DNA of 64,000 nucleotides from Schmidtea nova (GCA_044892505.1 CM097882.1:336350001-336414000), one strand, 5' to 3'. Numbered from the stretch's first letter, positions 1 to 64,000 are shown. The notes: generated from the sequence alone by a model not told the origin. Translations and numbers: made by a program.

Positions 1-1236
1 TAAAATCAATAATGTTTAAGTTAAAAAATTGTATTATTGTGAATTTATGGTGCCTTTTAAAGTAAAATTTGGTATACTATTTTAAAATAATATTATATTT
101 CATCTAGTGACAATCAATTTATTTTCACATGAAATTCAAAGATTATTATATTTCGTCTAGCAAAACATTTAAGTATTTTAATTAAAATAATTAATTGTTA
201 CCCTTGTGTATGATAAAAACCATTTTACATAAAAAGTAAAAATGCAAATAAAGTACATATATTAAATTCAGCACTAAGAAAAGATATTGGTAAGCAGTAT
301 TTGTCACTGACATGGATGACCACAACGCTGGTTTATTGGAGTCATGATCATTAGACATTGTCGCGGATTGTTGATTAATTGGGATTTGTCGATTGGATTA
401 ATTGTTTTGGATAATTGTTAGATATTCAAATCTGTCAAATAGATTAAAGTGATAAGACGTTGTTGCTAAGATTTCCGAACTAAGTTTCCATCTGTGTTTT
501 TGAAATTGAGGGCTATGAAAAGAATTAAGTTCAGCAGATCACTTAACTTAAAAATTTACTTGTTTTGCCAATAGAGAGAAATGATTTGCGTAGAAAATTA
601 TGCTTGGTGAATTTGAATGGTGTTCGGCTTGTTGTTGATTGAATGATGGATTGAAACAAATTGTTTCGGAATATCAATTAGTTATAAAAGTAAATTAGTT
701 ATAAATATAAAAATGAAAATAGAAAAAAAACCCTAATGTAGCATTAAAATATTTTCACAAATTAAGAATTAAAGTTTTGATTTTATCGTAAATGCAAATG
801 TAAATTAAAAATTTTATTTTAGAATACTTTCATTAATAATTAACATAAATTATAATATAAGTAAAATTTAATGTTTTATTAGTGTTTTGATGCTCGGAAT
901 GATTTATTTGAATGCAATAATAAATTTATAGTTAGGTAGAATATTAATGTTGAATTGCCGATAAAATTTTGTTGAATGCTTAAAGATAAATCGTCGAAGA
1001 AGGGGACAAAATGGGCAAGAAACCTTCTATCGGTAGCCCTTGGACCCAGGAGATATTCGGTCAATCATAGTTTCGTATTGACGACGCTCACTGATTGCGA
1101 ATACCCACCCACTTGTTACAGTACCAACGTTACATAGTGACGGGTAACAAGGTGGTAATTTCAATATTTTATGTGTTGGGTTGTTGATGAGAGCCATGGT
1201 AACGTCAAGGTCGTATTGACAATCAACAACCCACCA
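1..1236 (+). repeat. 3' part of the 5' LTR (truncated by the window start)
   Basis: No mismatch or indel found by eye versus 20807-22042; identity stops exactly at ...CAACAACCCACCA. Confidence 0.85.
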
Positions 1237-1246: not shown

Positions 1247-1264
1247 TGGGGGCTCAGCCGGGAA
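1247..1264 (+). promoter_or_regulatory. Primer-binding site, tRNA-Pro-like
   Basis: TGGGGGCTCAGCCGGGAA versus the canonical tRNA-Pro PBS TGGGGGCTCGTCCGGGAT (15/18), 10 nt after the LTR end. Confidence 0.75.
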
Positions 1265-3819: not shown

Positions 3820-4302
3820 ATGGAATCGATTGAGCATATTTTACTACGAATCGAGTCGTTTTTCGATTTTGAGAATGACCCATTGCGGGTGTTGAGTGAG
3901 AAACTTGAACGAGTAAATGGAATAAAAGATGAGTTATTGTTGAATCCTAGACCACAACCTGAGAACCTAATAGTGATTGCAGGAATTGTAGGAACAACAA
4001 ACGATGTTTCGTTAGAAACAATTTACGAATTACAACGATTGCGACTGAATAATCCAAATTTTAATCTAAAAATACAAGAATGGATTGGTAAAATCGATAA
4101 AATCATGGACAAGCTAGAGAGATCGATAAATCAACAGATCGATTCGTTTGAAGGATGCTATATTTGTCGACAAAAAGAAGCGAACATTTTGTTCATGCCA
4201 TGTGGGCATTTGTGTTATTGCCAGCCGTGCTCTAGAGAAATAAAGCGATGCGTAATCTGCAAACAGACAATTGATGACAAAATCGTCGTATTCTGTTCGT
4301 AA
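3820..4302 (+). CDS. 160-aa protein with a C-terminal IAP/MDM2-type RING finger (putative E3 ligase)
   Basis: CYICRQKEANILFMPCGHLCYCQPCSREIKRCVICK; TTTTAG lies immediately before the ATG; intact ORF. Confidence 0.85.
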   Translation: MESIEHILLRIESFFDFENDPLRVLSEKLERVNGIKDELLLNPRPQPENLIVIAGIVGTTNDVSLETIYELQRLRLNNPNFNLKIQEWIGKIDKIMDKLERSINQQIDSFEGCYICRQKEANILFMPCGHLCYCQPCSREIKRCVICKQTIDDKIVVFCS

Positions 4303-4631
4303 AGAATGTCGTTCGAAATAAACGTTTTAGTCGTGTTGAACTTCGTCGATCATCCAGTAATACAAACCGTTATAAAATTAAATAAACAAAAAACATTAGG
4401 TAATTAATAACTGAGAATCGTGAAAAAACATAACAAGTAACGGCTAATGCCGAAAAATCAAACATTAGGAAAATGGGAATTTGTGGCAAAGTTATTTTCT
4501 TTTCTTTTTGAATTTTCTTTATTATTATTATTATAAATCCTCCTCATCATTATTATATTGAACCGAATTTCATTACTATAATCTTTCTTATTACCATTAT
4601 TATATTGATTATCATTATTATACTGATCATT

Positions 4632-5200
4632 ATATATATAAATATGTATGAATTAGGACGAGCAATAAGTAGCGTTATAGGAGTTGATTTTATAAGGAGA
4701 ATCTTCTGAAATAGAGCGATAAATGAGTGTCTGAGTAGGAAACAGGAAAATAGTACACAAATTCATAACTGAGCTATCAAAAGATAGTACGCCAAATTTT
4801 AACAGAGCTATCAAAAGATAGTACGCCAATTTTTTTATTATTGTTGAAAAATTAGTAGACAACAAACGGGGAAAAACCTGATCACCTTAAGGAGAAAGTG
4901 TAGAATAGGCCCCATCGCAAATGTTGATAAATTTCGTTTGTGACTGATCACCACAAATTGCGAAACGAGTTGACGCGATTTTTACGATTTTGAATTAGGT
5001 GAAAGGGCTAAACCCGTAATGTTCGTCTTATACACCAGTTTGCCAAGGCATGATTGGTACACTGAGGTAGAAGACAGTAACATAAGTAAGGAGAAAGTTG
5101 CTGAGAAAATTAGATGCAGATTTTAGAAAGTCGAAAGAGTAAAAAGCGAATTTCGATGATTATAGTAGATGATAGTTTAAATAAGAAAAGATTCTACCAT
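4632..5200 (+). pseudogene. Possible decayed ORF of unknown product
   Basis: Protein-like reading (...RDFYDFELGERAKPVMFVLYTSLPRHDWYTEVEDS...) interrupted by several TGA/TAG; no family recognised. Confidence 0.25.
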
Positions 5201-5343
5201 GGTAGTTAAGGAATCGATTCATAATTGAGAAGTAGTAGAACAATTTGAGAAAAACAGTCAGCAACAGCGAATTTAGTTAAAAATTTGAGAATAGGGAAAC
5301 GAGTGATTGAATAGCATAAAGAGAATAATCGAAGACGGCCGAG

Positions 5344-6118
5344 AAAAATTGAGAAACTTTGAGAGTTCATGTATGTGAGAGACTTTGAGAGTCCAGAAAA
5401 TTGAGAAACTTTGAGAGTTCATGTATGTGAGAGACTTTGAGAGTCCAGAAAATTGAGAAACTTTGAGAGTTCATGTATGTGAGAGACTTTGAGAGTCCAG
5501 AAAATTGAGAAACTTTGAGAGTTCATGTATGTGAGAGACTTTGAGAGTCCAGAAAATTGAGAAACTTTGAGAGTTCATGTATGTGAGAGACTTTGAGAGT
5601 CCAGAAAATTGAGAAACTTTGAGAGTTCATGTATGTGAGAGACTTTGAGAGTCCAGAAAATTGAGAAACTTTGAGAGTTCATGTATGTGAGAGACTTTGA
5701 GAGTCCAGAAAATTGAGAAACTTTGAGAGTTCATGTATGTGAGAGACTTTGAGAGTCCAGATAATTGAGAGACTTTGAGAGTCCAGATAATTGAGAGACT
5801 TTGAGAGTCCAGGTAATTTAGAGACTTTGAGAGTCCAGGTAATTTAGAGACTTTGAGAGTCCAGATAATTGAGAGACTTTGAGAGTCCAGATAATTGAGA
5901 GACTTTGAGAGTCCAGGTAATTTAGAGACTTTGAGAGTCCAGATAATTGAGCGCTCTGGGAGAGACTTTGAGAGTCCAGATAATTGAGAGACTTTGAGAG
6001 TCCAGATAATTGAGAAACTTTGAGAGTTCATGTATGGGAGAGACTTTGAGAGTCCAATGTTTGTGAAAATTGAGAAACTTTGAGAGTTCATGTATGCGAA
6101 AGACTTTGAGAGTCCAAT
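5344..6118. repeat. Minisatellite: about 30 x 26-bp monomers, the left part organised as a 52-bp dimer
   Basis: Core ACTTTGAGAG; GAAAATTGAGAAACTTTGAGAGTTCA + TGTATGTGAGAGACTTTGAGAGTCCA repeats with period 52 (5395 to 5447); 26-bp variants follow after 5760. Confidence 0.95.
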
Positions 6119-6886
6119 GTTTGTGAATATTGTCGAGAAATTTAGGAAAAACGTTTGAGAAATAGAATTAAATAAAACTGCAGTTATAATTTTGTTATGA
6201 TAGAGAGAAACGTTGAACGCGAATACTTAAGATGTAGTAAGAGAAACCGTTAACAAGAGCAGACAAAGATATCGAGAAATACCTAAGAAATAAAATAATG
6301 GCCATGAATAGATAATGAACAAGACATTTTTTTTATAACCTCGAATGCCGAGATGAATATGAAAACGAGTCGACAGGATCCTATTATTATTATAGTATTA
6401 TTATTGTTATTATTATTGTTATTATCAGGGTATAGATAACTGATACGACCATATAGATAATTATTACGAGATATAGATAATTTAAAATCTGAGCTCAGAA
6501 TAAAAGGGGGGTAAATGGCGTCGATGAAGAAGCGATATTTTTATTTAGATTGTCCAACAGATCAAAGTCAAGCCAAGAGATAGTCAAATCAATCAGTTAT
6601 TGAAGAGGTATATATAGAAGAAAAGAAGAAAAAGAAGTCTAATTGAAAAGGAAAGAAGTAAAAGAAAATAAATCAAAGAAGATCCAATTGAAGATAAACG
6701 AGAGATCAGCAATCGATATTAAACGCAAATTGATAATACTACCAAACCAACCAAGTTCGTAAAGTCGAAAGATAAAGAGTCAAATCTATTAAAAACGACG
6801 AAAGGAAATTACAAAGAAACAAAGCTGATAAATAAAGAAGAAAAATCCACAATATTTGAAAGTTTGTAGCCGATTTTCAGAAAGAA

Positions 6887-9800
6887 ATGGAGGAGAATCA
6901 GAAAGTTACCAGTGCAAACTCAGAAGATAATTTATTAGAAGAAGAGCAGAAAATAACCAGCCCAAACGTAGAAGATAATTTACAGGAAGAAGAAAAAGAA
7001 GTAGTAACAATGAAAATGCAACTACAACGGAATATCGAAGGAAAAGTAAATGAAATGATAACCGAATTATCAGACGTTGAAATCGAAAGAAAGGGAAATG
7101 TATATGAATTTTCAGTAAAAGATATGGAGGGAGAAGAAAAGAAGAAGTTTGTGGAGAAATATAACCGAAAAAGAAGAGAAAGAAGAAGCAATGATGATAC
7201 CTGTAGCATGGACGAGAAATGGGATGAATCTACGACAATCAAATTAGAAGAAGTGGCACAAAGATTGTTAAACATTACCATAGAAGAAATGGCGAAAATG
7301 AATCAGAAATCGGAAGAAAAGAGGAAATCAGCGAAGCTCGAAAGATTAAGACAAACAGAAACGTCAAAGACCGAACGATTAATCAGTAACTTAAGCAAGC
7401 GTGCAGGAAATCAATGTGAAACAACAACTGAATTACTAAAATGGGTTATAAAAAATAGTGCAAATATATCCAACATGAGATTGATAGTGAAAGAAATCGA
7501 GAAATGCAGACGTTTATGCCCTTGGTATTCAACACAATTTGATGACATCATGAGAAAATGGAAACAACTGGAACAAACAAATGATGATCCACAGATGTGC
7601 AGATTGGAAATTCAGTTTCCGAGTCTAGAAGAAATAAAGATGAATGTAGCATTAACAACAAAGATCAAAGAGATAAAAGAGAGATTACCATTCAATTTAC
7701 CATTTCACTTGAAATATGATGGAGAATCGCTGGATGATGATATAGAAATCGGTGTAACCCCGATACAAATCGAAACAAGTAATAATTTAACTGTCGATAA
7801 AATTGCAGGAAGCGAGTTGACCAGAAAAGCGAGAGGTGAAGATGACCCCGAGACAACGATAATTGCAATGATGAAAACTCCAGCTGGACCAACACTTACA
7901 AGTAACATCGAAGTTAATGGCGTAAAAATAGACGCGATGATAGATACTGGCGCAAATATATCAGCAATAGATATCGATATGATACCAGAAATGTTACGGC
8001 TATGCATCGAGAAAACATCAGTAGACGTAATAACATGCAGCAAAGAATCTGTTAATATCGTTGGAAAGATATGGACAGACATCGAATACAGAAATGTAAA
8101 AATATCAACTTATTTGACAGTAATAAAACAACTGGGTGCCTCATGCATTATTGGAACAGACTTAATACCAAAACTGTTAAAAGGATCTGTAATTGATTTG
8201 AATACGATGAAGTTGGAACACCAAATTGAAGAGAATTACACAAGAGAAACAATGATAGAACAATCAAATCCAGAAACAACCAGAAAAGGACAAGTATATA
8301 TGTTTCGAGAGAATAAAAATGATGATTGGTTACATCGTATATTAACTACGAGCAGAAAAGTAAATCAGCCAACAACAATATCTGAACAACCTAAGGTAGT
8401 TGACGATGTAAAAATGGAGCACCGCAAAAAGATGGAATTGATCATTGAGATTACCAAAGAAATTATGCCAGAATGGTCAAAAAGTAAAAATCTATTTGAA
8501 ATATTGGGAGGAGCAAGCTTAATGGTTGAGGAATATGCCAAAGGAAATGAGACGACAGAAGCGATGAATACCATAAAAGAAAGATTACCAATACTATTTA
8601 CAATTGCCAGTTTTAAAGATGAGATACCATTATATCACGTAATAAAAAGTGGGAATGAACAGAGAATGTTTGAAATCATAAAACTCATGGAAAAGTGTAA
8701 ACAACATACCAACACGAAAAACTGGAAAGATCAAACACCCTTGATGGTAGCAATTGAAAAAGGAGGATCCAAGAAACTCATAGCAGAACTGATGAGAACC
8801 GGATCAAGTTTTAAAGAAAGAGATGATAAAAATGAAACGGTGTTATCATATGCAGTGCAAGCAAATAACCATCAAATAATCAAATATATTATGTCAAATG
8901 CGACAGAAGAAGATATTGAAGTGCTCAGTTCAGATCCAAATCCATTAGTAAATGCAGTGAACAAAGATGCAGACGAAACAACAGCCAAAATGATTAAATG
9001 GTTACATCCAGTTACGCACGAAGGAGTGATAAATGTCAATGACAGATTTGAAGACGGTGAAAATATGATAATGAAAAGAGCCATGAAAAGAAAATGGAAA
9101 ATGTATAAAACGATTAAAGCATTGCTGCGAAGACCTGATTTCAAATTTACAAACAACAAAAAAGAAAAAGAAAGAATTGGATCTAAAAGACATGAATTAT
9201 ATCAGCAAGTCATCATATGGAAAGAACATATAAAAGAAAGCAGAATTCACCGAAGTTGGAACAATGCCAAAGATGAGATAACCAAGAGAGCAAATATAAA
9301 AGCCGAAGCAGATGAAATAGCTAAAAGGTACGAGGAAATAATAAAATTAATAAATGTCGAGGACGACATTTTAATCAGAACCGAGGGTGGTGCTGATGAG
9401 CACAATGAGCCTGACGATGAAGATGAAGGGAATAACAACAACAAAACAAAGAAAGATGACAATGAAAGTATCAACAGAAACAATGACAAAGACGAGAAAG
9501 ACGATGGAAAAAGCAATAACGATGAAATTGGGAACAAAGGTGATGAACCCAAGCAAGAAACTTCAAATTATGAAAAACGAACAGCATGTCTACATAAAAC
9601 TCGAATAAAAGACATAATATTGCTGAAACTGAGGCTGTCAACATTGAAAGGAACGGAAGCCGATGATAAAAGAAAACCAGTACAAGTATTAACATCAGGA
9701 GCAGATAATAAAGAAGCATGTTGGAGTAGCATCAATTTGCAAAGTAAAGGAGATAATCCAGTCAAAAGTCAACGAGCAGAAGGAGGAGAAATCCGAATAA

Positions 9801-9997
9801 ATGGATTAAAACGAGAAACAAAATATAAAATCTGTGTTTACAAAAAGAAAGCATCACAAGAAATGTTTAGAACACTCGTATGTCAGATAGTAACACATAA
9901 TGGTTCAAAAGTCACCCAAGAAGACATAAAAGTCATATTAACCGACGAGCCAGATGAGAACATCAGGATGTCGTCGAAACGCAAGTTGTCAGAGTAA
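6887..9997 (+). CDS. 1036-aa multidomain protein: charged N-terminus, ubiquitin-like domain (?), retropepsin-type aspartic protease, ankyrin repeats, D/N-rich linker, possible FN3-like C-terminus
   Basis: IEVNGVKIDAMIDTGANISAI (DTG at 7943) plus IIGTDL; ankyrin repeats KDQTPLMVAIEKG and KNETVLSYAVQANN; Ubl-like LEIQFPS...TKIKEIKERL...LKYDGESLDDD; FN3-like IRINGLKRETKYKICV. Confidence 0.85.
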   Translation: MEENQKVTSANSEDNLLEEEQKITSPNVEDNLQEEEKEVVTMKMQLQRNIEGKVNEMITELSDVEIERKGNVYEFSVKDMEGEEKKKFVEKYNRKRRERRSNDDTCSMDEKWDESTTIKLEEVAQRLLNITIEEMAKMNQKSEEKRKSAKLERLRQTETSKTERLISNLSKRAGNQCETTTELLKWVIKNSANISNMRLIVKEIEKCRRLCPWYSTQFDDIMRKWKQLEQTNDDPQMCRLEIQFPSLEEIKMNVALTTKIKEIKERLPFNLPFHLKYDGESLDDDIEIGVTPIQIETSNNLTVDKIAGSELTRKARGEDDPETTIIAMMKTPAGPTLTSNIEVNGVKIDAMIDTGANISAIDIDMIPEMLRLCIEKTSVDVITCSKESVNIVGKIWTDIEYRNVKISTYLTVIKQLGASCIIGTDLIPKLLKGSVIDLNTMKLEHQIEENYTRETMIEQSNPETTRKGQVYMFRENKNDDWLHRILTTSRKVNQPTTISEQPKVVDDVKMEHRKKMELIIEITKEIMPEWSKSKNLFEILGGASLMVEEYAKGNETTEAMNTIKERLPILFTIASFKDEIPLYHVIKSGNEQRMFEIIKLMEKCKQHTNTKNWKDQTPLMVAIEKGGSKKLIAELMRTGSSFKERDDKNETVLSYAVQANNHQIIKYIMSNATEEDIEVLSSDPNPLVNAVNKDADETTAKMIKWLHPVTHEGVINVNDRFEDGENMIMKRAMKRKWKMYKTIKALLRRPDFKFTNNKKEKERIGSKRHELYQQVIIWKEHIKESRIHRSWNNAKDEITKRANIKAEADEIAKRYEEIIKLINVEDDILIRTEGGADEHNEPDDEDEGNNNNKTKKDDNESINRNNDKDEKDDGKSNNDEIGNKGDEPKQETSNYEKRTACLHKTRIKDIILLKLRLSTLKGTEADDKRKPVQVLTSGADNKEACWSSINLQSKGDNPVKSQRAEGGEIRINGLKRETKYKICVYKKKASQEMFRTLVCQIVTHNGSKVTQEDIKVILTDEPDENIRMSSKRKLSE

Positions 9998-10149
9998 CCA
10001 GTGGAAGGAACAGTGTATATAGTGTATAAAATTATATTGTATTATAAAAGTAGAATATATTTGTATAATAAAAATTTAAAAATCCAAAAAATTGAATACC
10101 TAAAAACTGGGAAAAACAAATGATAATATTGTGTAATTATTTGACAGAA

Positions 10150-10785
10150 ATGAATCCGAACAACGAGAGTCAAAGTTATCAAACATCAGTTCCAACGTTC
10201 AATGAACCATCAAATCAAATTCAGTTTCCAGAAGATACCAATATACGAGAAAGAGAAAGGTCACTGCAGACCCCAGTAATCGAAAATGAAACGCAAAATC
10301 CAACAATTGATGATAGAAATCTGATATACCAAGTCGAAATTCCACTGTTTGATGAAACCATGAACCCAATTCAAACGACATTCGTATTAAATCAACAACT
10401 AACAAATAGCCAGACTCAATCAATATCAGCTCCGATGGTTTATCAGCAGACAATGACGCAAGAGTTATCATGGAAAACGCAATGTGAATTATTAAGCAGG
10501 ATGTTGAATCAAGCCTACGCACAATGGAAAAACGAACAAGCTTTGTTAACAGAAAGTGTAAACAGAAATTTATTATATCTTGCTAAAATGGAAGAACAAC
10601 AACAAATGATAATCCAAAAGGACCAGAGAATTGAATGGTTAACAAGACATACGGAGTGGCAAACAAACGAAATCAGAAGATTGAATGAGACGCGAGAAGA
10701 AGTTAGAGCATGGTATAACTGGTTAGACAATTTTCCAGAACCGGTTCGAGAGCCTGACTCGACGGGAAGGGATGAACTATTATAA
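10150..10785 (+). CDS. Q/T/P-rich N-terminus plus coiled-coil protein (about 211 aa), unknown function
   Basis: Open frame 10120-10785; ATG 10150 follows TTTGACAG-AA; heptad-like Q/E/L-rich C-terminal half; contains PIQTT. Confidence 0.7.
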   Translation: MNPNNESQSYQTSVPTFNEPSNQIQFPEDTNIRERERSLQTPVIENETQNPTIDDRNLIYQVEIPLFDETMNPIQTTFVLNQQLTNSQTQSISAPMVYQQTMTQELSWKTQCELLSRMLNQAYAQWKNEQALLTESVNRNLLYLAKMEEQQQMIIQKDQRIEWLTRHTEWQTNEIRRLNETREEVRAWYNWLDNFPEPVREPDSTGRDELL

Positions 10786-10879
10786 AAATTTAAAACCAGT
10801 GTAAATAAAATGTAAAAATGTGAATATGAATAAAACTTGGTATAAAGAGCAGAATGAAAAAATTGTAAATTATTTTAGA

Positions 10880-12283
10880 ATGCAGACCGAGAATCAGCAG
10901 AAACAAGAAGAATTGATCGAACTATATCAGATACTACAGAGACAACGGATAGAACCAACAGAATTTCAAGAAAGATTTAAATGTAAAGTATGTAGAAATT
11001 TATTGATAGAACCCAGACAAACTGAATGTGGATGTCGAATATGCACTAATTGCGTGACGAAAGTAATACGAACAAAACAGAAGCTATGTCCTGAATGTGG
11101 TGAAGCAATAATAGACCAATTTGACCAAACCAGACCAGATATCGCAATGAATCGGGAAATAATGAACGCAGCAACAACCTGTCCAAACAAACCATGTGTA
11201 TGGAGTGGGCCAATAAAATGGATCGCCAAACACCTTTATAATTGTGATGATACGAAAGCTAAATGCAAGTGGTGTGAAGAAGAAATGTTGAAGAAAGTCA
11301 AAGATAGTCATGAGGAAATGTGTGAACAACGACAGGAAATATGTGAGTTTTGCAACGAAACAGACGCTTGGATAGTGTTAAAAGATGAGCATTGGAATAT
11401 AGAAGAAGGGCAAGTATGTGACGAGTATGAAGGTAATTGTAATCAATGTGGAATGGCAGAAAACGTGAAGCTAAAAGAACATTGGGAAATATGCGAAAAG
11501 AAGCCTACTGCATGTCCACTAAAATTATTCAATTGCAAAGTAAGATTACCAAAAGAGGAAATACAAAAGCATGTAGATGAAAATAGTGTAAATCATTTGA
11601 GAACCGTTGTGGAAGCTATTGGAGCAACCGCACTGGTAATTGGAGAAGCCAACACAGAAATAAAATCTCACAAAATCATGATACAAGAGATGTTGGATAC
11701 GAGAGGAAATTTTGAAAGAATAAGAGAACAAATGATCCAAAAAATGATACTATTAGACCAGAAAATAGCAGAAATATCAACAATCCAACAAAGATTGGAA
11801 AGCATATTGCCAACAATGGAAGAACTACCCGTCACACCCTACTATTGGAAAATCACAGAATTTACAGAGAAATTGAGACTAGCAAGAGAAGGAGGTCAAC
11901 GTGTATGGACAAGTCCACCTTGTCATAGTTGGAAACATGGTTACAAGCTTAGATTCAAAGTATATCTAACGGGAGACGGACTAGGAGCCGGAACTCATTT
12001 ATCTGTATATTTTCAAATATGTAAAGGAGATTATGACGATTGGTTAGAATGGCCCTACGATTGCGATATAGCTATGAGGATCGGAACAAAGGAAAACAAC
12101 GTTCGGGAAGTATTCAGACCAAACTTGAAGAAGGTAGAAGCAGCTTATAAGAAGCCGATCGAAAACTACAACGTAGCTGTAGGAAATCCACGTTTTATTG
12201 CATTACATTATTTAACCACAGAACAATCATTATATTTGGTAAATAATATCCTGTATCTGATTATCGAAGTGAGGAAGCCGTAG
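10880..12283 (+). CDS. TRAF-family protein (RING, TRAF zinc fingers, coiled coil, MATH), TRAF2/3/5-like
   Basis: RING CKVCRNLLIEPRQTECGCRICTNC...CPEC; CPNKPCVWSG zinc finger; MATH YYWKITEF...GYKLRFKVYLTGDGLGAGTHLSVYF...LEWPY. Probable start 10880 after TTTTAG-A. Confidence 0.93.
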   Translation: MQTENQQKQEELIELYQILQRQRIEPTEFQERFKCKVCRNLLIEPRQTECGCRICTNCVTKVIRTKQKLCPECGEAIIDQFDQTRPDIAMNREIMNAATTCPNKPCVWSGPIKWIAKHLYNCDDTKAKCKWCEEEMLKKVKDSHEEMCEQRQEICEFCNETDAWIVLKDEHWNIEEGQVCDEYEGNCNQCGMAENVKLKEHWEICEKKPTACPLKLFNCKVRLPKEEIQKHVDENSVNHLRTVVEAIGATALVIGEANTEIKSHKIMIQEMLDTRGNFERIREQMIQKMILLDQKIAEISTIQQRLESILPTMEELPVTPYYWKITEFTEKLRLAREGGQRVWTSPPCHSWKHGYKLRFKVYLTGDGLGAGTHLSVYFQICKGDYDDWLEWPYDCDIAMRIGTKENNVREVFRPNLKKVEAAYKKPIENYNVAVGNPRFIALHYLTTEQSLYLVNNILYLIIEVRKP

Positions 12284-12502
12284 CGAAGATGGAAAAAGTG
12301 TAAATATGTCTGTATTATAATGAAGTATCTGTATCATAATGTACAAAATAAAATTAAAAAATCACAAAAACATAAAAATTAAAAAGAAATATAAAAATGA
12401 GAAAAACCGAAAAATCAAATATAAAAATGAGAAAAATCAAAATGTTGTAAATATAGAAAACAAAAATTGTGAAAATATAACGGAGAAAATATTGTAGATA
12501 CA

Positions 12503-13672
12503 ATGACTGAAAGGAAGATCGTGAAAATACGAGAAGATGACAGATCATTCAAAAGTTTGTGCGAATTAATGAAAAGAGGTAAAGAAAAGAAGTCAAAACC
12601 AATTACCTCAGAATTGATTTATTGCCAATTTACACGAACAATATCAAATGTCCCCAAGGAAAGAAATTATGGCAAATTCAAAACTATCGATGAAACGTTG
12701 AAAAATGAGAACCGAAGATATATAACCTTTCTACAACAAGACAATTTCTATGAGAAGCAATACAGAAAATTCGCCAAAGAGGGTTTGTATTTTGCAGGGA
12801 CAATCGAGAAACCCGATAAAGTAACTTGTGTATTTTGCAGAATTGAAATAGAACCTTGGAGAATTAACGATGATCTACTAACAGAACATAGAAAACTTTC
12901 ACCCACATGCCCGTTTGTGTTAAAGGCATACGAAAAACCAAGAAAACCAGCAACAATGAACAATGATGAAGAAGAAAAACCCAAAATAGTAACGATAACT
13001 TCAACAGGTCCAGCAAAGATACGATTCATAGAAATTGATCCAAAATATACGATTAATGGGAGAACTGACACCTTTGCAGATAAAAAGATGGGTATCAGAT
13101 TAGCAATAGAAGGTTTTTATGCAATAAATGAATCAACCGCTGAATGTTCAGAGTGTGGAATACAATATCAATTACCAAAAGAAGAAGGAGAATACCTGAA
13201 ACACAACGAATATTGTAAATATGGAGAAGAATTATATGAAGACGAAGAACCGATCAATTATAAAAACCCAGAGATGCCTGTTAATGAATTATTAGTAGAT
13301 AAGATATTAGACGAACCACGAACTCAAAAGGCAATGGAACGTACCGGCAAAAGCGAAATATTTGTGAAAGAAGTTATCAGAGAGAGATTGAGAAGAAATG
13401 GAGAAACATTTGGATCAACCCTAGAATTTTTCAAAGCTATAATACAGTTCACCAGAAAATCTAAAGTTGTCAACCCAGAATCATGTATCAAGAAAGTTAT
13501 ATTAAATAAACACCCCTGTTCAATCTGTTGGATAAAGAAAGTGGAAGTTATTCATTTACCGTGTGGACATCTGTTGGCATGTGAAAATTGTAGCAATAAA
13601 TTGAGATTGTGCTCAATGTGCAGGAAACCGGTCGACAAACGGATCAAGGGATTTCGTTATGCCGATCAATAA
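12503..13672 (+). CDS. Inhibitor-of-apoptosis (IAP/BIRC-like) protein: BIR, degenerate second BIR, C-terminal RING
   Basis: BIR FAKEGLYF...DKVTCVFC...W...DDLLTEHRKLSPTCPFV; second R.TF...LAIEGFY...CSEC...H...C; RING CSICWIKKVEVIHLPCGHLLACENC...CSMCR. Confidence 0.93.
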   Translation: MTERKIVKIREDDRSFKSLCELMKRGKEKKSKPITSELIYCQFTRTISNVPKERNYGKFKTIDETLKNENRRYITFLQQDNFYEKQYRKFAKEGLYFAGTIEKPDKVTCVFCRIEIEPWRINDDLLTEHRKLSPTCPFVLKAYEKPRKPATMNNDEEEKPKIVTITSTGPAKIRFIEIDPKYTINGRTDTFADKKMGIRLAIEGFYAINESTAECSECGIQYQLPKEEGEYLKHNEYCKYGEELYEDEEPINYKNPEMPVNELLVDKILDEPRTQKAMERTGKSEIFVKEVIRERLRRNGETFGSTLEFFKAIIQFTRKSKVVNPESCIKKVILNKHPCSICWIKKVEVIHLPCGHLLACENCSNKLRLCSMCRKPVDKRIKGFRYADQ

Positions 13673-13806
13673 TCCAATCAAGCAACCTTGTAAATAAATT
13701 GTAAAAATTTTAACTATAATCGATGTATACAAGTATTATTTAATAAGCATGAGCCACAAAAAATGTATAAACAAAAGGAAATTACCCATGTTATTATTAT
13801 TTCAGG

Positions 13807-15354
13807 ATGAATATACAACAATTGATAAACATCCTAGATCAGGAGATGGCCAAAAGACAAGAACAACTAAATCAAATGAGAAATTATGAACAAAGAATGG
13901 AAGCCATCCAAGAGAACGTTAAAATGATTGAGAAACGAACCCAAGAGATCAATAAAATAAAAGAGGAAAATGAGGAACTACGAAAAATAATAATCGACAA
14001 GGCACATATCGAAGCTGAACTAGACAATTATAAACGAGAGTACAGGGAAATGGAGAGAAAACTCGAGCACGAACAACGGAAGTCGGTACCGTTGAAAAAT
14101 CAAGCGAGATTAAGAAAAGAAGAGCTCGAAACTTATAAAAGAGATACCGAAACAAGGTACGACAACTCCATAAGATTCTATCAGCAGCAACTCGAAAGTG
14201 AAAGAAACAGATATGAAGCCATGAAAAAGAAATGGGAAAAGTGTCGAGATGAAGCATTTGTTTTGAGAGGACAACCTCAAAAGAAGCTTAAAGTCAGAAC
14301 AAGAAACATTGAACCTGAAAGCGAACAAGAAAAGATCATTAGAAAAGTTAAAGCAGAGGCTAGGAAATGGAAACAAGAACATCAAGATTTATTGGAAATG
14401 GCTCGACACAGAAAAATGCTACACGAAGAATTATTAAGACGGAGAGACGTTCAAATCGAGGCTCTGAAAGAGGAATGTCATTGGTATGCAGACATACGTC
14501 ATGAGGAAACGGAGAAACTCAGAAAAGAAATATTCCAGTTGAAAACGAGCGGGCAATTCAGAGAACGAAGCATAAAGCATCAAATAAAGTGGCTAAAAGA
14601 ACAAGCCAGAACATGGAAAAAGACCTGGAAAAGAACTCGAGACGAACTACGAGAATTCCCAAAGAAGCTGATGTCAATAAATGAAGCAGAATTGTGGGAA
14701 AATGCAGAAAAGCAAGAGATAGAAAACAAAGAATTAAGACGGCAAGTTCAATTAAAAACTGAATGGAATCAAAGGAGAATGAAATTTACCAGGAATCAAG
14801 AAGCTCGTATCAAATATCTGGAATTTGAAAATAGGCAATATGATCAACAGAAAAACATGGACGATAGAAGTATTGAAGAATTGACAATCGAATTGACTAT
14901 TGCAAACCGTGAAGTCAACGGATATCGAGGAACAAATACGCATAAAGACATTGTCATTCAACACCAGCGACGGCAGATAGAAGAAACAAAGGCCGAATGT
15001 GAGAAAGCGATCCAGCAATCGCAGTATGAGATTGAAATGGCTATCCAAAGTTTGGAAGAAAATCGCCAAAACTATGAAAGAGAGATTGAAAGGTTGAAAA
15101 ATATGGAAAATACAAGAGAGCTCGAGATAGAAAAGGAACAGCTGAGTGAAGAACTCGATTACATGACATATTTGCTAGATGAAGAGATAGAAATCTCAAG
15201 AACTTTACGAGAGAGAGTTCAGAGCCTACAAAATCAACCTCCAATAATTCTATGGCCACTATATCCAACACCAATACAACCTGTACATTTGGAGCAAGAA
15301 AATCCTCAAATCGAAGATGAAGGGTTCGGAGAAATTGAAGAGACGTTTGTATAA
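13807..15354 (+). CDS. 515-aa long coiled-coil protein with a Pro/acidic tail, unknown function
   Basis: Intact E/K/R/Q-rich ORF; TTTCAG-G precedes the ATG. Confidence 0.8.
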   Translation: MNIQQLINILDQEMAKRQEQLNQMRNYEQRMEAIQENVKMIEKRTQEINKIKEENEELRKIIIDKAHIEAELDNYKREYREMERKLEHEQRKSVPLKNQARLRKEELETYKRDTETRYDNSIRFYQQQLESERNRYEAMKKKWEKCRDEAFVLRGQPQKKLKVRTRNIEPESEQEKIIRKVKAEARKWKQEHQDLLEMARHRKMLHEELLRRRDVQIEALKEECHWYADIRHEETEKLRKEIFQLKTSGQFRERSIKHQIKWLKEQARTWKKTWKRTRDELREFPKKLMSINEAELWENAEKQEIENKELRRQVQLKTEWNQRRMKFTRNQEARIKYLEFENRQYDQQKNMDDRSIEELTIELTIANREVNGYRGTNTHKDIVIQHQRRQIEETKAECEKAIQQSQYEIEMAIQSLEENRQNYEREIERLKNMENTRELEIEKEQLSEELDYMTYLLDEEIEISRTLRERVQSLQNQPPIILWPLYPTPIQPVHLEQENPQIEDEGFGEIEETFV

Positions 15355-15445
15355 ATAATAAAAGTGAATGTAAAGTGTAAAAAGAAATTGAAATGTAGTG
15401 TAAAAAGAAAACGTTGTGTAAAAAGAAAAAGTTGTAAAATATATC

Positions 15446-15492
<47 letters not shown>

Positions 15493-15656
15493 AAATAAAA
15501 AGTAGAAAAAATAAAAATTCAATAAAAATTAGAAAAAATGAAAAACAAATAAAAATTAGAAAATGTTAAAAATGATAAAAATGATAAAAATGATAAAAAC
15601 AAAAACAAAATTAATAAAACTGTAGAAAAGAGTTATGAAAATTCGAATTATAGAAA

Positions 15657-16232
15657 ATGAGATTATTGAAGCAAAGATCAGAACCAGAACAACAAACGAT
15701 ATCAAAAGAAAGATTCAAAAAATGGAAAAGGGCAACAGAGCAATATTATCAAGACCAAATAGACCAATTGAAGGAAGTAGTGAGCAAAGATAGAAAATAT
15801 ATCGCGCAAATGGAGCAAGAGTGCGAGACGATGGAAATAATCAAGCGAGAAAATTATTTATTTCGCCAACAAAACGGTCTCACCCAAAAATATTGCGACA
15901 GACAGAAGCAAGAGATTGACAGACTCAAGAAGGAAATAAGCAGTGAACAGAACACTGATAATAAAAGGAGAATTAAGATCGAGTCACTACAACGATCATT
16001 GAAGAACAAACAGAAAAAGATTATCAAAAGAGAAAAACAGATAATAAAGTTGAAAAGTGAAATCATAGAAGCAAAATTCGATACGTTCAAAGCAAAGAAA
16101 GTTGTAGAAATCAAAACGGCAGAAAATTACGTCCTCAAAGAGCAAAGGCGAAAAGAAGCAGACGAGATTGCAAAAATGGGTAACTGGAAGCCAGAAAGTC
16201 CGCTAAAGCTAAATGAAGAGACGAAAGAATAA
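15657..16232 (+). CDS. 191-aa basic coiled-coil protein, unknown function
   Basis: Intact ORF; TTATAG-AAA precedes the ATG. Confidence 0.7.
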   Translation: MRLLKQRSEPEQQTISKERFKKWKRATEQYYQDQIDQLKEVVSKDRKYIAQMEQECETMEIIKRENYLFRQQNGLTQKYCDRQKQEIDRLKKEISSEQNTDNKRRIKIESLQRSLKNKQKKIIKREKQIIKLKSEIIEAKFDTFKAKKVVEIKTAENYVLKEQRRKEADEIAKMGNWKPESPLKLNEETKE

Positions 16233-16327
16233 AATATATCTAAACTCATGTAAATATCCCTGTAAAAATATAAAAGAGAAAATTTGAAAAATCATTAAAC
16301 AAATTTGAATCTATAAATCTATAGAAA

Positions 16328-17152
16328 ATGAGCAATCTAATGAGGATCACAACAACCATCGTGATAGCTATAATTACAAACTGCCGAAGCGAAGAAGCAT
16401 TGAGCCAATGTCAAGCAAGCCATCCATTTAGAAGATCCGATAGCATTTGTGCAAGCTATCAAGAAATTTGTATCACCAGAAATGAGGAGTGTCAACAGAT
16501 CCAACTACAATGTCAACAATGTCCAAAATCCAGAGAAGATTCAATCACTATTCTTAAACAGCTAAAAAACGAAACCCAACAATTAATCCAACTACAAATC
16601 TCCTTAACCCAAAGGAACAATCTTCAACTAAAGAAACAACTCGAAAGCCAATCATCCTTCAAACAGTTAACAACCGAACTAAAGAAATTGAGCAAGTTAA
16701 TAGAAAAATCTCTAAATAATAAAGATGAAGTTAATGAGGAAAGATCAAGTTTCACAGAAGAGTTAAATCAAAAACTGAAAAGTCAACTTCATCAGACCGA
16801 GAGAATTATAAAACAATTGATATTACCCGAAAAGCAAAGGGAGATTATCCCTAAACAAGGATCAACCAACAAAGACGTCAGAGACCGAGAAGCAGCCATC
16901 ACAGTCGTTCTACAAGGCCTCAGTCTTTTCACGGTCATAATGATCCTTAGCATTGTTGCATCAATCGGAGTAGAAAAAATGAAATTAGAGAAAGCAAAAA
17001 TCCAGTTGAATACCATTAAACGAATCACCCATGAAGACAACAACCCGTCAGAGAATTTTCTAAGATCAATATTTGAAGATCCAGTTCCAGAACCTCCTAA
17101 TCCTGAGACATCTACAACCTCGGTGCAGATGAATTATTTCTATAAACAATAA
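16328..17152 (+). CDS. 274-aa predicted type-I membrane protein (signal peptide, 6-Cys segment, coiled coil, TM, cytoplasmic tail)
   Basis: N-terminal ITTTIVIAIITNC; six Cys within residues about 27-65; hydrophobic AAITVVLQGLSLFTVIMILSIVASIGV; Pro-rich tail. Confidence 0.75.
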   Translation: MSNLMRITTTIVIAIITNCRSEEALSQCQASHPFRRSDSICASYQEICITRNEECQQIQLQCQQCPKSREDSITILKQLKNETQQLIQLQISLTQRNNLQLKKQLESQSSFKQLTTELKKLSKLIEKSLNNKDEVNEERSSFTEELNQKLKSQLHQTERIIKQLILPEKQREIIPKQGSTNKDVRDREAAITVVLQGLSLFTVIMILSIVASIGVEKMKLEKAKIQLNTIKRITHEDNNPSENFLRSIFEDPVPEPPNPETSTTSVQMNYFYKQ

Positions 17153-17744: not shown

Positions 17745-20700
17745 TGTTGGGCCAAAACCCAATTTGTTTTAATAAAGCGATAACCCCATAGGTAGAGAAC
17801 GCGCAAGATTCCATTTTAACCTTTGCTTCCATTAAAAAAATCCAACAATTAAGCGGAAAACACCAAAAGGTGAAGATGAATCAAAACACAGCAACCGGTA
17901 GAATGCGCGCTAACTGCGAATTTATAGATATTTCCACTGAAATCTCGAGAAAAATTAAAAGCAGAATGTTTGGAAGCTAGAATAGGCAAAAAACCCATGG
18001 AAAGTGCCCATAAAGAACAGAATTTTATCATAAAACCTTCAAGTGCAGAAAAACTAACACAATTCTAGAGGAAAATTGTGAATTTATCACAAAATTTCAC
18101 ATATAACAATAGAAAGAATTAATATGGATCGAAAATCATAAATTAAATCAAATCGAACAAATTTCGATTCAAACATAGAAATTTTGAATAAAAATAAATT
18201 ATTTATAGTTTATAAAAAATTATTATACAAAAATATGGAATTAATTTTCGGAAAATCATTAGAATTAATTTAGAAAAAATTAAGAGAAACTTCTAGAACA
18301 ATTTGTTTTATTGCACTACCGGAGATAGAGAAAATTTGATGGTATATATACCGCCATCAAAATGGCAGATTAGACAGAATTTTGTGGAAAATTTTTCTTG
18401 ATTAATTTGCGGAGAAATTGCGAAAAATAATTTTTGTGAAATCCAACTTGAGAATTTGATTGCAAGAAGAAAAGCTAATTTGATTTCAAGAAGAGAAGAG
18501 AAAAGCTAATATCAGAATTTGATTCCAAGAAGTTACTATCAGAAGTTGATTCCAAGAAAATTTGTGGAAAATTCGTTCCAAATTTCTAAGAAAAAATTAA
18601 TTTGTTTGAAAGAAATCGTAGCAGAAGTTAATTGGACAAACGTAAGGATTTGTTTGATTTTGGTTATTCTCATTGGGGATTGGAATGGTCGTCCATCATG
18701 CCTGACGATCATCCCATTCCCCCCTTTTTTATTTAATATGTTATTTGTCATTTTATTTATTATGGTCAATTTTATATTATTAAAGTATTTTCATGATTAA
18801 TAACTTAGTTTTTTTTTTTTTTTTTTGTTGTCATAATCATTATCACGAGCCACAATTTCCCAAAATAATTCAGGAAAGATCTCATTGAAATTCGAAAACT
18901 AAATTAAATTATGAAAATAAATAAAAATTTTTTTTTTTTATCTCCCATATCTTCTGACGATCCGTCCAGCCTTGGTTGTGCGGATCTGTTAGTAGCCTGG
19001 GTGGATCGTTGTCTGATTGGTAATCGGCCAGCCCATATTTCCACTTTAAGGTGAGGCTCATACATCCAAATTCGCGTCATCCCAACTGGGGAATCGCGGT
19101 TTGACCAAGAGCAAGGTTTTGTTATACTAATGATTTGTATTATAATAGAGTATCATATTTTTATTATCTACATAAGCAATTTCGTAATACAACATAATAA
19201 TTTCTACCTCATGTCTTGAAATCTAAAATAGGAAATATTATTGATTAAAAAGTCGACTCGTACTCACCTTCGCCTTCACACTCTCAACAACGTTCATCTC
19301 ATAAGAAAATGCAAGAAAAATGGATGCTGATGATGAAAAGAAAATGGTTCGAAATAATGCTCAAAGTCTAGAATAATGCTCATGAAGTGAAACAAATTGT
19401 GAAACAAGTATTGATTTAATCTGAATTAAAGCTCATTATGGTCTAAATAAGTTTTCCTGTGAATCTTGTTTTTCGAGAGCCTGAAATTCCTAAGTGAAGT
19501 GTCCCGAAAAATTCGCGTACACTTGGTTGGGAAATTCATGCTCAACAAAACCGAAATTTACTTTGCTTGAGGTTAAAAATATTCGCTGAAAAATTTGTAA
19601 CTTATTTTTATTTTATTTTTATTTAGCATATAAAATTTTTTAGATTAAATGCTTATTTAGATCTCGAATTTATGGATAAAAATTTATTATCATTTCATTT
19701 GGATCAGAAATAGAAATTTGCTTTTTATTATGTTGAAAAGATTTTATATGGAAAAATTGTAAACCAAATTTGGTTCCTAATGTTATTAATATATGAAAGA
19801 TTTTATCATTTCGTAAAATTCCCGAGAATTTGAAAATCAAAAGTTATATTAAACCCCATGAAAATTTAGATTGAAATTTTATTATTATATTAATAAATTT
19901 TATTATTTTATAAAAAATCTCAATTCGAGATTTTATAGAAATTTTTTTTATCTATTCTTAAAGTATAAAAATTGTAAATTCAAATCGACATTATAAAAAA
20001 TTATAAACCTTATCGTTAATTGTTTTTCGTAGAAATTTTAAAACTTAAAAATTTGTAAAAAAGTATTATGAGAATTGTTATTATTATTTCGATCTAAAAA
20101 TTATTATTATTATCTTGATCTAAAAATCATTACCATTAGTTTAATTTTAAATTTTTTTTTTATGTTAACTTAAAAAATATTTTATACAATTTATTTAATT
20201 TATAATATAACCCCCCACGACATCTTAAAATAATAATACATCACTCATTGCAAAGATTTACACCCTTTTCACTCAATAGCATCATCCATATTAATATACA
20301 AACAACATACACATAAAATACAATACACACACATGCACAGTACCATTCAATAACATCCAACAATCACATACACACCAACAAACCTTATCAAAATTCCACA
20401 CAGACATTCTAGTTAGAATCGTTCATCTAACCACACTCATAAGCACTCAATTGTTTTAAATCACTCATCATACAATCACACACAAACACAACAGTAACAA
20501 TAGGACACACAGTCATCATACTACACCTCATCCACCAATAAATTATTTACTCTCATCCAACATTCAAGTCAACATACAGACACATATAATCACATACAAT
20601 CTCCCGCACTATCAATGAAAAATTCATAATAAACCTGTAAAAGTGTATCAACAATCAAGCTCGAAATGATAGTATCCCACATCATACGTAAACATGCATA

Positions 20701-22042
20701 CCTCCAAAAAGACAATGCCAAGGTTTCATCCATTCACCCACCACAAACATTTGGTGTGGAACCTTTTTATTTGTAACGGATATTAGGAAGTTTTCAAGAT
20801 TGCCTTTAAAATCAATAATGTTTAAGTTAAAAAATTGTATTATTGTGAATTTATGGTGCCTTTTAAAGTAAAATTTGGTATACTATTTTAAAATAATATT
20901 ATATTTCATCTAGTGACAATCAATTTATTTTCACATGAAATTCAAAGATTATTATATTTCGTCTAGCAAAACATTTAAGTATTTTAATTAAAATAATTAA
21001 TTGTTACCCTTGTGTATGATAAAAACCATTTTACATAAAAAGTAAAAATGCAAATAAAGTACATATATTAAATTCAGCACTAAGAAAAGATATTGGTAAG
21101 CAGTATTTGTCACTGACATGGATGACCACAACGCTGGTTTATTGGAGTCATGATCATTAGACATTGTCGCGGATTGTTGATTAATTGGGATTTGTCGATT
21201 GGATTAATTGTTTTGGATAATTGTTAGATATTCAAATCTGTCAAATAGATTAAAGTGATAAGACGTTGTTGCTAAGATTTCCGAACTAAGTTTCCATCTG
21301 TGTTTTTGAAATTGAGGGCTATGAAAAGAATTAAGTTCAGCAGATCACTTAACTTAAAAATTTACTTGTTTTGCCAATAGAGAGAAATGATTTGCGTAGA
21401 AAATTATGCTTGGTGAATTTGAATGGTGTTCGGCTTGTTGTTGATTGAATGATGGATTGAAACAAATTGTTTCGGAATATCAATTAGTTATAAAAGTAAA
21501 TTAGTTATAAATATAAAAATGAAAATAGAAAAAAAACCCTAATGTAGCATTAAAATATTTTCACAAATTAAGAATTAAAGTTTTGATTTTATCGTAAATG
21601 CAAATGTAAATTAAAAATTTTATTTTAGAATACTTTCATTAATAATTAACATAAATTATAATATAAGTAAAATTTAATGTTTTATTAGTGTTTTGATGCT
21701 CGGAATGATTTATTTGAATGCAATAATAAATTTATAGTTAGGTAGAATATTAATGTTGAATTGCCGATAAAATTTTGTTGAATGCTTAAAGATAAATCGT
21801 CGAAGAAGGGGACAAAATGGGCAAGAAACCTTCTATCGGTAGCCCTTGGACCCAGGAGATATTCGGTCAATCATAGTTTCGTATTGACGACGCTCACTGA
21901 TTGCGAATACCCACCCACTTGTTACAGTACCAACGTTACATAGTGACGGGTAACAAGGTGGTAATTTCAATATTTTATGTGTTGGGTTGTTGATGAGAGC
22001 CATGGTAACGTCAAGGTCGTATTGACAATCAACAACCCACCA
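17745..22042 (+). repeat. Complete 3' LTR, 4298 bp (family A)
   Basis: Starts TGTTGGGC at the same point where homology to 22057-26006 begins; ends CCCACCA; its last 1236 bp match 1-1236. Confidence 0.8.
18343..18350 (+). promoter_or_regulatory. Candidate LTR TATA box
   Basis: TATATATA in GATGGTATATATACCGCCATC; conserved at the aligned position of the sister LTR (22703-22710). Confidence 0.45.
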
Positions 22043-22056
22043 CAATTAATTAAATT

Positions 22057-31484: not shown

Positions 31485-31699
31485 AAAAGCACAAATTCAG
31501 GAACACTTCTCAAAAATTATATATTTGAAATCAAAATATTTATATAATTTAGTTAAACAAAATGTTTATGTACCAGGATATTAATAACAGTTTAAAATTT
31601 TATATTATTTTAAACTAAGATTGTTTTTGGAGTTAACTCGTCATTAAAATGACTTGTTGAAAATCTAATATCACTGAATAAAGTGAAAGTTTGAGGCAG

Positions 31700-62897: not shown

Positions 62898-64000
<1,103 letters not shown>

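What the first reader, a model, noticed from the sequence alone, without database searches (positions are those of the whole stretch)
3820..17152. Mobile TNF-receptor/NF-kB/apoptosis signalling kit: TRAF, IAP, a second RING E3, ankyrin repeats and a membrane protein in one cassette
Seen: a full RING-ZF-CC-MATH TRAF next to a BIR-RING IAP, plus another IAP-type RING, an ankyrin module and a type-I TM protein. Known: TRAF2 and cIAP1/2 act as a physical complex in TNFR signalling, IkB proteins are ankyrin proteins, and viruses separately use IAPs (baculovirus), IkB-like ankyrins (polydnavirus) and TRAF-recruiting membrane proteins (EBV LMP1). Inference: a retroelement carrying cooperating pathway members to block death or innate defence of its host cell (e.g. 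stem or germ cells). I do not know of TRAF and IAP being co-carried by a retrotransposon.
Basis: partly seen in the sequence, partly recalled or inferred. Interest (0 to 1): 0.88.

Follow-up and report, generated by a model that had tools for sequence, protein, structure and literature searches.

The report
Enzyme-less Burro retrotransposon carrying TRAF, IAP
The cell-death and signalling genes are real and ride in a very abundant jumping gene of the known planarian Burro kind, but this version has lost its copying enzymes, likely borrows them from a rarer helper element, and carries the anti-death gene that the helper copies examined lack.

Summary
The ORFs are real: RING, protease+ankyrin, full TRAF, BIR-RING IAP, two coiled coils and a membrane protein. 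They lie in a 25.1-kb LTR element with identical 4.3-kb LTRs and a 4-bp target duplication, but no RT, RNase H or integrase. What this genome adds: the element is a non-autonomous satellite (1,133 exact TRAF words) of a 30-kb Burro1-like helper (237 RT words) with the same LTR ends, primer site and leader. It carries the BIR-IAP that 3 of 3 helper copies lack. All eight ORFs show purifying selection. Each start codon follows a splice-acceptor-like site and a TGTA-rich spacer, as in a trans-spliced operon (inferred; no RNA data). Against a single cooperating 'kit': the ankyrins are a leftover of the helper's polyprotein, the membrane protein has no canonical TRAF-binding motif, a second Burro family has TRAF without IAP, and lineages lacking TRAF+IAP have also multiplied. 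TRAF-IAP binding is untested. Verdict: new variant of a known kind.

The parts
1..1236 (+). 3' part of the 5' LTR (the LTR is 4,298 bp and begins 3,062 bases before the window; TG...CA ends)
   Evidence: 4298 of 4298 bases identical to the 3' LTR
1247..1263 (+). Primer-binding-site-like motif, 10 nt after the LTR; same in helper A and family B. Likeness to a tRNA-Pro end is recalled, not tested
3820..4302 (+). ORF1, 160 aa, IAP-type RING without BIR; shared with the helper (93.75% identical in 2 of 3 helper copies, frameshifted and more distant in the third)
5345..6132 (+). 26/52-nt tandem repeat in the leader, shared with the helper
6887..9997 (+). ORF2, 1036 aa: internally deleted Burro polyprotein (two N-terminal pieces, aspartic protease, ankyrin repeats, FN3-like end); no Gag core, MATH, Env, RT, RNase H or integrase
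   Evidence: (FN3 lead, score 0.89)
10150..10785 (+). ORF3, 211 aa from Met11 (Met1 at 10120 is missing in 4 of 6 other copies); no family; homolog in family B (38%)
10826..12283 (+). ORF4, full TRAF (RING, zinc fingers, coiled coil, MATH); likely start is Met19 at 10880
12503..13672 (+). ORF5, IAP: one clear BIR, a possible decayed second BIR (by eye; no solved-structure match), UBA-like helices, RING
13807..15354 (+). ORF6, 515-aa coiled-coil-like protein; homolog in family B (26-29%)
15657..16232 (+). ORF7, 191-aa coiled-coil-like protein
16328..17152 (+). ORF8, 274 aa: signal-peptide-like start, helical ectodomain, one membrane segment, short tail
   Evidence: (low confidence)
9998..16327 (+). 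Intergenic spacers (40-300 nt) rich in TGTAAA/TGTAHATA, each ending in a YAG acceptor-like site 0-6 nt before the next start codon
17700..17744 (+). Conserved GC-rich motif just before the 3' LTR (plus-strand priming region by position), identical in helper A
17745..22042 (+). 3' LTR, 4,298 bp
22043..22046 (.). 4-bp target-site duplication (same four bases precede the 5' LTR)

Best explanation
This is a 25-kb Burro-type LTR retrotransposon without RT or integrase that is likely copied in trans by a co-resident 30-kb Burro1-like helper, and whose IAP and TRAF genes likely damp cell-death and stress signalling in the cells where the pair replicates. Shown: the anatomy, the shared LTR ends, primer site and leader, the descent of ORF2 from a Burro polyprotein, the copy numbers and purifying selection on all eight ORFs. 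Inferred: (1) helper Gag/RT/integrase package and insert the satellite RNA, and co-packaging lets the two swap LTR and leader; (2) the downstream ORFs are made as separate mRNAs by splicing to the acceptor before each start codon, most likely spliced-leader trans-splicing, with the TGTA-rich spacers as 3' ends; (3) the BIR-RING protein works like Burro1's B-IAP, binding and ubiquitylating caspases or IAP antagonists, and TRAF acts as a decoy or E3 scaffold in host TRAF signalling; (4) because these products act in trans, deletion lineages lacking TRAF+IAP can free-ride.
For: No RT/RNase H/integrase in the window copy, no such ORF in 6 of 6 further full copies (picked among best TRAF matches), and no pol hit in the 10-kb stretch read for 14 of 14 satellite copies in a positional sample of 20 junctions. 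Helper: 3 of those 20 junctions lead to a 4,892-4,893-aa ORF with Gag, CCHC, MATH, Env, protease, RT, RNase H, integrase, ankyrin and FN3, against 4,873 aa and the same order for Burro1. Same LTR start and end, primer site and pre-LTR motif; LTR and leader 84-97% identical in DNA. ORF2 blocks are 39-66% identical to the helper protein with dS 1.3-1.7, while ORF1 has dS 0.18: an old split with recent exchange of the 5' part. Exact 24-mers: TRAF 1,133, ORF6 1,441, helper RT 237, controls 0. dN/dS of variants shared between copies 0.06-0.24 in all eight ORFs; TRAF 0.12 (35 copies), IAP 0.18 (14 copies). 28 of the 30 best BIR loci in the genome are this family; no BIR in 3 of 3 helper copies or in the 2 family-B stretches read. 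YAG within 6 nt of the start in 8 of 8 ORFs against 18% of 390 ATGs; kept in every aligned copy for seven ORFs and 16 of 17 for ORF2; TGTAAA 16 times in 1,442 nt of spacer, shuffle mean 1.6, 0 of 2,000 as high; same features in family B. Spliced-leader operons are documented in flatworms, and trans-splicing in Schmidtea mediterranea (passages). Burro1 B-IAP protects stem cells from caspase-mediated death (as cited in PMC13465017).
Against: No expression or binding data of any kind here. TRAF+IAP are missing from 7 of 13 informative satellite copies in the junction sample, with two shared breakpoints (5 and 2 copies), and 36 of 100 ORF6 words have no TRAF word nearby (an upper bound, as words mutate), so they are not needed in cis. 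The acceptor rule was drawn up after looking at the window, two starts (ORF3 Met11, TRAF Met19) were chosen partly with it in mind, family B copy P scores 4 of 5 once the ORF3-like start left out of the script's count is added (its YAG is 7 nt away), and two optional ORFs have their acceptors 15-18 nt upstream. Cis-splicing is not excluded: donor-like hexamers exist in the LTR and leader. Family B shares the primer site and could also act as helper. dN/dS used simple site counts without mutation bias; the shared-versus-singleton contrast is not significant for IAP (p 0.52), ORF1 or ORF3. The host donor genes of TRAF and IAP were not identified.
Confidence: 0.7

Rival explanations
1. One reading: TRAF, IAP, the second RING, ankyrins and the membrane protein form one cooperating TNFR/NF-kB module, with IAP bound to the TRAF coiled coil and TRAF recruited by the membrane protein's tail.
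For: TRAF and IAP are adjacent, intact and selected; both known deletions remove them together; the MATH domain is closest to TRAF1/5/2/3 among solved structures.
Against: Family B has full TRAF, coiled coil and membrane ORF but no BIR; the ankyrins are part of a polyprotein remnant; no canonical TRAF-binding motif in the ORF8 tail (motifs recalled); the BIR matches NAIP, DIAP1, survivin and cIAP BIRs about equally and is not specifically BIR1-like; joint loss follows from adjacency.
Confidence: 0.15
2. The cargo serves the element's own replication or spread (ubiquitin-dependent particle assembly, evasion of silencing, cell-to-cell spread with the helper's Env) rather than cell survival.
For: Protease, coiled-coil and membrane ORFs are as well or better conserved than IAP (dN/dS 0.06-0.24) and persist in the lineages that lost TRAF+IAP; the helper carries Env.
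Against: A BIR-RING IAP on Burro1 is reported to act on host caspase-mediated death (second-hand); TRAF+IAP are dispensable in cis, which fits a product shared across the cell.
Confidence: 0.2
3. The cargo is neutral baggage: intact only because the copies are young.
For: LTR pairs are 99.8-100% identical in 7 of 7 copies measured and identical in the window; single copies do carry stops and frameshifts.
Against: Shared variants are mostly synonymous in every ORF; TRAF keeps its full architecture at 36% identity to family B; ORF2 has dN 0.19-0.38 against dS 1.3-1.7 to the helper; acceptors are conserved.
Confidence: 0.03

Closest known systems
Burro1 / GYPSM1 and Burro-2 to -4, giant Ty3/Gypsy elements of Schmidtea mediterranea (PMC6431247 section 7, read whole; Jurka 2007 and Grohme 2018 only as cited there)
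   Same: Giant LTR element with RING, Smc-like coiled coil, MATH_TRAF, BIR and ankyrin. The helper found here matches the described Burro1 polyprotein in length (4,892 vs 4,873 aa), three CCHC knuckles, in-frame MATH, Env between Gag and protease, then RT, RNase H, integrase.
   Different: The window element has no Gag core, Env, RT, RNase H or integrase; TRAF is a full-length separate gene; the IAP sits on the satellite and not on the helper copies read; the cargo is an array of short separate ORFs.
Burro1 B-IAP (Lee et al. 2026, Dev Cell; not held, known only from passages of PMC13465017)
   Same: Retrotransposon-borne BIR+RING protein, reported to protect stem cells from caspase-mediated apoptosis and aid regeneration.
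   Different: There on an autonomous element; here on a non-autonomous partner, beside a BIR-less RING paralog (ORF1) shared with the helper. Orthology with B-IAP was not testable (no sequence on hand).
Burro-like element of Dugesia tigrina (PMC6431247 section 7)
   Same: MATH_TRAF encoded by an accessory ORF outside the polyprotein, as in the satellite and in family B here.
   Different: Described as an upstream accessory ORF of an autonomous element; here TRAF lies downstream in an ORF array.
RLG_Cereba / RLG_Quinta autonomous and non-autonomous pair of wheat (PMC11302176, abstract)
   Same: An old protein-coding non-autonomous partner recognised by shared LTR, primer site and polypurine-tract motifs.
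   Different: Quinta contributes Gag; this satellite contributes protease and host-derived IAP/TRAF, and outnumbers its helper about five- to six-fold by exact-word counts.
Human TRAF2-cIAP1/2 complex; baculovirus IAP; EBV LMP1 (recalled)
   Same: Domain types (TRAF; BIR-UBA-RING).
   Different: No evidence of the complex; one clear BIR, not three; no canonical TRAF-binding tail on the membrane protein.

Membership tests
Burro (giant planarian Ty3/Gypsy) | Giant LTR element, multi-kb LTRs, total near or above 30 kb | tested here: met
   Helper 29.8-30.2 kb; satellite 25.1 kb with 4.3-kb LTRs
Burro (giant planarian Ty3/Gypsy) | Cargo domains RING, coiled coil, MATH_TRAF, BIR, ankyrin | tested here: met
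   All five in the satellite; list
Burro (giant planarian Ty3/Gypsy) | Single ~4,900-aa polyprotein Gag-MATH-BCL2-Env-PR-RT-RH-IN | tested here: not met
   Satellite: only a 1,036-aa deleted remnant. Met by the helper, except that Pfam gave no Bcl-2 hit in the helper; the region is 31% identical to a Bcl-2-motif region of another family
Burro (giant planarian Ty3/Gypsy) | Sequence identity to published Burro1-4 | not testable with these tools
   No Burro sequence on hand; protein searches found no planarian relative (blank; only generic ankyrin and protease hits)
Non-autonomous LTR retrotransposon with an autonomous partner | Intact LTRs, primer site and target duplication but no RT/integrase, stable across copies | tested here: met
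Non-autonomous LTR retrotransposon with an autonomous partner | Partner sharing LTR ends, primer site and plus-strand priming region | tested here: met
   3 of 3 helper copies
Non-autonomous LTR retrotransposon with an autonomous partner | Mobilisation in trans shown directly | not testable with these tools
   Inferred from shared signals and from low dS in the 5' part
TRAF (canonical) | RING, TRAF zinc fingers, coiled coil, MATH in order | tested here: met
   the RING's His position is Cys in satellite and family B
IAP (BIR-RING) | BIR with CX2C...H...C ligands and C-terminal RING | tested here: met
cIAP1/2-type TRAF-binding IAP | BIR1-type domain that binds the TRAF coiled coil; three BIRs and CARD | tested here: inconclusive
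   One clear BIR, no CARD hit; BIR type not resolved
IkB-like ankyrin protein | Stand-alone ankyrin-repeat protein | tested here: not met
   The repeats are within the protease-bearing ORF2 and match the helper's post-integrase region at 39-40%
Spliced-leader-resolved operon | Same-strand genes at 300 nt or less with an acceptor before each downstream gene | tested here: met
   Spacers 40-302 nt between ORF2 and ORF8; acceptor-like YAG 8 of 8; threshold
Spliced-leader-resolved operon | Reads bearing the spliced leader at those acceptors | not testable with these tools
   No RNA data obtained (see Tried and rejected)

The most novel reading that the evidence does not exclude
A division of labour between two retroelements: the helper supplies the copying machinery, while a five-fold more abundant satellite supplies the anti-apoptotic IAP and a full TRAF from a modular operon that hijacks the host's spliced-leader trans-splicing, making the satellite the main source of BIR genes in the genome and a public good that TRAF/IAP-less cheater lineages exploit.
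Probability: 0.3. Interest if true: 0.78.

Novelty: new variant of a known kind. Interest (0 to 1): 0.48.

Why it matters
The headline claim (TRAF and IAP on one retrotransposon) has been in print since the GYPSM1/Burro descriptions. What would matter is the arrangement: if the host-protective IAP reported for Burro1 has, in this planarian, moved to a non-autonomous satellite with over a thousand copies, then host-transposon mutualism becomes a three-party system (host, helper, satellite) with measurable cheaters, testable by element-specific RNAi. A retroelement expressing captured genes as a trans-spliced operon would be a mode of accessory-gene expression that my searches did not find described. 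It also warns that counts of planarian TRAF and IAP 'expansions' can include element-borne copies, though this genome has many host-type TRAF loci too.

Tried and rejected
Expression: no RNA holder listed for the TRAF-IAP stretch (4 holders, one study, two organism labels, kind unknown); nothing was laid on the element, so expression is open. TRAF-IAP binding: no verdict, the pair was not folded. Single-sequence folds of ORF8 (pLDDT 45) and IAP (pLDDT 34) were too poor to use; no fold search was run. Homolog searches for IAP and TRAF found nothing at E 0.001; ORF2 gave generic ankyrin proteins and one protease; ORF2 residues 100-335 gave no atlas hit. The Bcl-2-motif family with 3,030-aa ORFs was tested as helper and rejected: 1.1-kb LTRs, another primer site, no DNA or protein match to the cargo in 4 of 4 copies. 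A related-LTR copy with a primer site (L119-L121) had no ORF of 200 aa or more. Recent capture from host TRAF genes was rejected: satellite, helper and family-B MATH domains fall on one side of a branch against 21 host-type rows (98/95; 9 identical host rows and 2 identical satellite rows dropped; long-branch warning; midpoint root). A second BIR could not be confirmed. No earlier scan findings. Papers not held: Lee et al. 2026 and Grohme et al. 2018; their texts and supplements may already describe non-autonomous Burro forms or the spread of B-IAP across species. No supplements were opened.
Full report
Observation. The window holds eight same-strand ORFs between 3820 and 17152. Pfam confirms a RING in ORF1, an aspartic protease and ankyrin repeats in ORF2, RING, TRAF zinc finger and MATH in ORF4, and BIR plus RING in ORF5; solved-structure searches put ORF4 nearest TRAF1/5/2/3 and ORF5 nearest cIAP1 and other IAPs. 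ORF8 has one strongly hydrophobic segment.

The unit. With 20 kb of upstream DNA, the array lies between two LTRs of 4,298 bp that are identical, start TG, end CA and are flanked by a 4-bp duplication; the element is 25.1 kb, from 3,062 bases before the window to 22042. A primer-site-like motif follows the 5' LTR. No RT, RNase H or integrase is present. Six further copies, picked among the best TRAF matches, have the same layout and no pol ORF; two more target duplications were seen. The exact LTR-end/primer junction occurs 1,720 times, control 0. I read 10 kb behind every fifth of the first 100 listed junctions (20 loci): 14 were this pol-less family, 3 had a giant ORF, 1 was an integrase-ankyrin remnant, 2 could not be assigned.

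The helper. The three giant-ORF copies are 30-kb elements with LTR pairs 99.8-100% identical, the same LTR ends, primer site and pre-LTR motif, LTR and leader 84-97% identical to the satellite, the same RING ORF, and one ORF of 4,892-4,893 aa. Pfam on one copy gives Gag, CCHC, MATH, viral fusion glycoprotein, protease, RT, RNase H, integrase, ankyrin and FN3. This is the Burro1 plan as described in PMC6431247 section 7 (read whole): 4,873 aa, three knuckles, in-frame MATH, Env between Gag and protease. ORF2 of the satellite aligns to four separated blocks of that polyprotein (41%, 54%, 66%, 40%), so it is a deletion derivative; dS is 1.3-1.7 for three blocks measured but 0.18 for ORF1, meaning an old lineage whose 5' end has been exchanged with the helper recently. 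Exact 24-mers count 1,133 TRAF, 1,441 ORF6 and 237 helper RT sites (lower bounds, not strictly comparable). The host is taken to be a planarian from this likeness alone; the species was not determined.

Origin of the cargo. A second Burro family in the genome carries ORF3-like, full TRAF, coiled-coil and membrane ORFs in the same order behind its polyprotein, without BIR (TRAF 36-37% identical). All Burro-borne MATH domains lie on one side of a branch against 21 host-type domains (support 98/95, long-branch warning, no outgroup). The cassette is therefore an old Burro possession, not a fresh capture. The IAP was seen only on the satellite: 28 of the 30 best BIR loci are this family, and the 3 helper copies have only the BIR-less RING ORF, which aligns with the IAP's C-terminal 90 residues at 31%.

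Selection and dispensability. Yet 7 of 13 informative copies in the junction sample lack TRAF and IAP through two shared deletions (5 and 2 copies), and 36 of 100 ORF6 words have no TRAF word within 3.5 kb (upper bound). The products are useful to the lineage but not required in cis.

How the ORFs may be read. Each start follows a YAG within 6 nt (8 of 8, taking Met11 for ORF3 and Met19 for TRAF; background 18% of 390 ATGs), conserved across copies, and the spacers are rich in TGTAAA (16 in 1,442 nt; shuffle mean 1.6). Met19 is backed by the alignment to family B and by a one-base insertion after Met1 in 2 of 6 copies. Family B shows both features (4 of 5 starts in one copy, counting the one left out of the script; 11 TGTAAA in 624 nt), while the two polyprotein starts examined lack the acceptor. 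The rule was made after seeing the window, and two optional ORFs have acceptors 15-18 nt upstream. Flatworms resolve operons by spliced-leader trans-splicing (PMC12582326 and PMC8629364, passages), so that is the likeliest route; cis-splicing remains possible. That TGTA motifs act as 3'-end or Pumilio-type signals is recalled, untested.

Mechanism. Shown: anatomy, helper relationship by shared signals, copy numbers, selection. Inferred: trans-mobilisation by the helper, separate mRNAs, an anti-apoptotic IAP working like Burro1's B-IAP (known to me only through PMC13465017, passages), TRAF as decoy or scaffold.

Novelty. RING, coiled coil, MATH_TRAF, BIR and ankyrin on Burro elements, and the idea that they meddle with apoptosis and ubiquitination, are in print. 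I found no description of a pol-less Burro satellite carrying the IAP, or of an operon-like Burro cargo, in searches (listings; passages of PMC11410931, PMC8532177 and PMC6109357; abstract of PMC11302176), but the two key papers (Grohme 2018, Lee 2026) and all supplements were unseen and may cover it. Verdict: new variant of a known kind; interest 0.48.

Noticed in passing
L181-L188 (G000:C1:552092000-552131999 and C1:195924000-195963999): A second Burro family (B): same primer site, polyprotein of at least 4,807 aa with Env/RT/integrase in one copy and a pol deletion in the other, followed by separate ORF3-like, full TRAF (470 aa), coiled-coil and membrane ORFs in the satellite's order but without IAP; its LTRs seem to hold two ORFs (229 and 209 aa).
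   Followed up: partly
L043-L058 (e.g. G000:C1:524744800-524758800): An abundant ~14-kb Gypsy family with 1.1-kb LTRs and a ~3,030-aa ORF holding a Bcl-2-like motif, homologous to the BCL2-Env region of the Burro helper.
   Followed up: partly
L124, L136, L137, L138 (between ORF2 and ORF3): Optional 482-aa ORF with signal-peptide-like start, an EGF-like cysteine cluster and a membrane segment, flanked by similar TGTA-rich spacers; absent from the window copy.
   Followed up: partly
copies D, E, F, L122, L126, L133, L135 (after ORF8): Optional ~264-aa signal-coil-membrane ORF resembling ORF8 in layout; absent from the window copy.
   Followed up: partly
L075, L076: Copies in which a deletion joins the first 173 residues of IAP region to the ORF8 region, seen twice, so possibly a multiplied BIR-membrane variant.
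   Followed up: no
window 22057-26006, 30840-31931 and 200 bases before the 5' LTR: The element sits between older solo LTRs of the same LTR family (71-87% identical in parts), one starting 14 bases after its 3' end; may reflect local clustering of insertions.
   Followed up: partly
L021-L023 (G000:C3:74041000-74070999): Tandem copy: the 3' LTR is followed by a primer site and leader again.
   Followed up: no
G000:C2:405-455 Mb (L151-L180): Dense clusters of host-type TRAF/MATH loci, several with a long single exon.
   Followed up: partly
window 37324-40546: Broken, unrelated Gypsy element with RT, RNase H and integrase pieces.
   Followed up: no
window 63150-64000 (- strand): Ubiquitin ORF (112 aa) next to an Hsp90 fragment at the window end.
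   Followed up: no
L057-L058 and L052-L054: Polinton/Maverick-like ORFs (packaging-ATPase-like and capsid-like by eye) beside the 14-kb Gypsy copies; label recalled, not tested.
   Followed up: no
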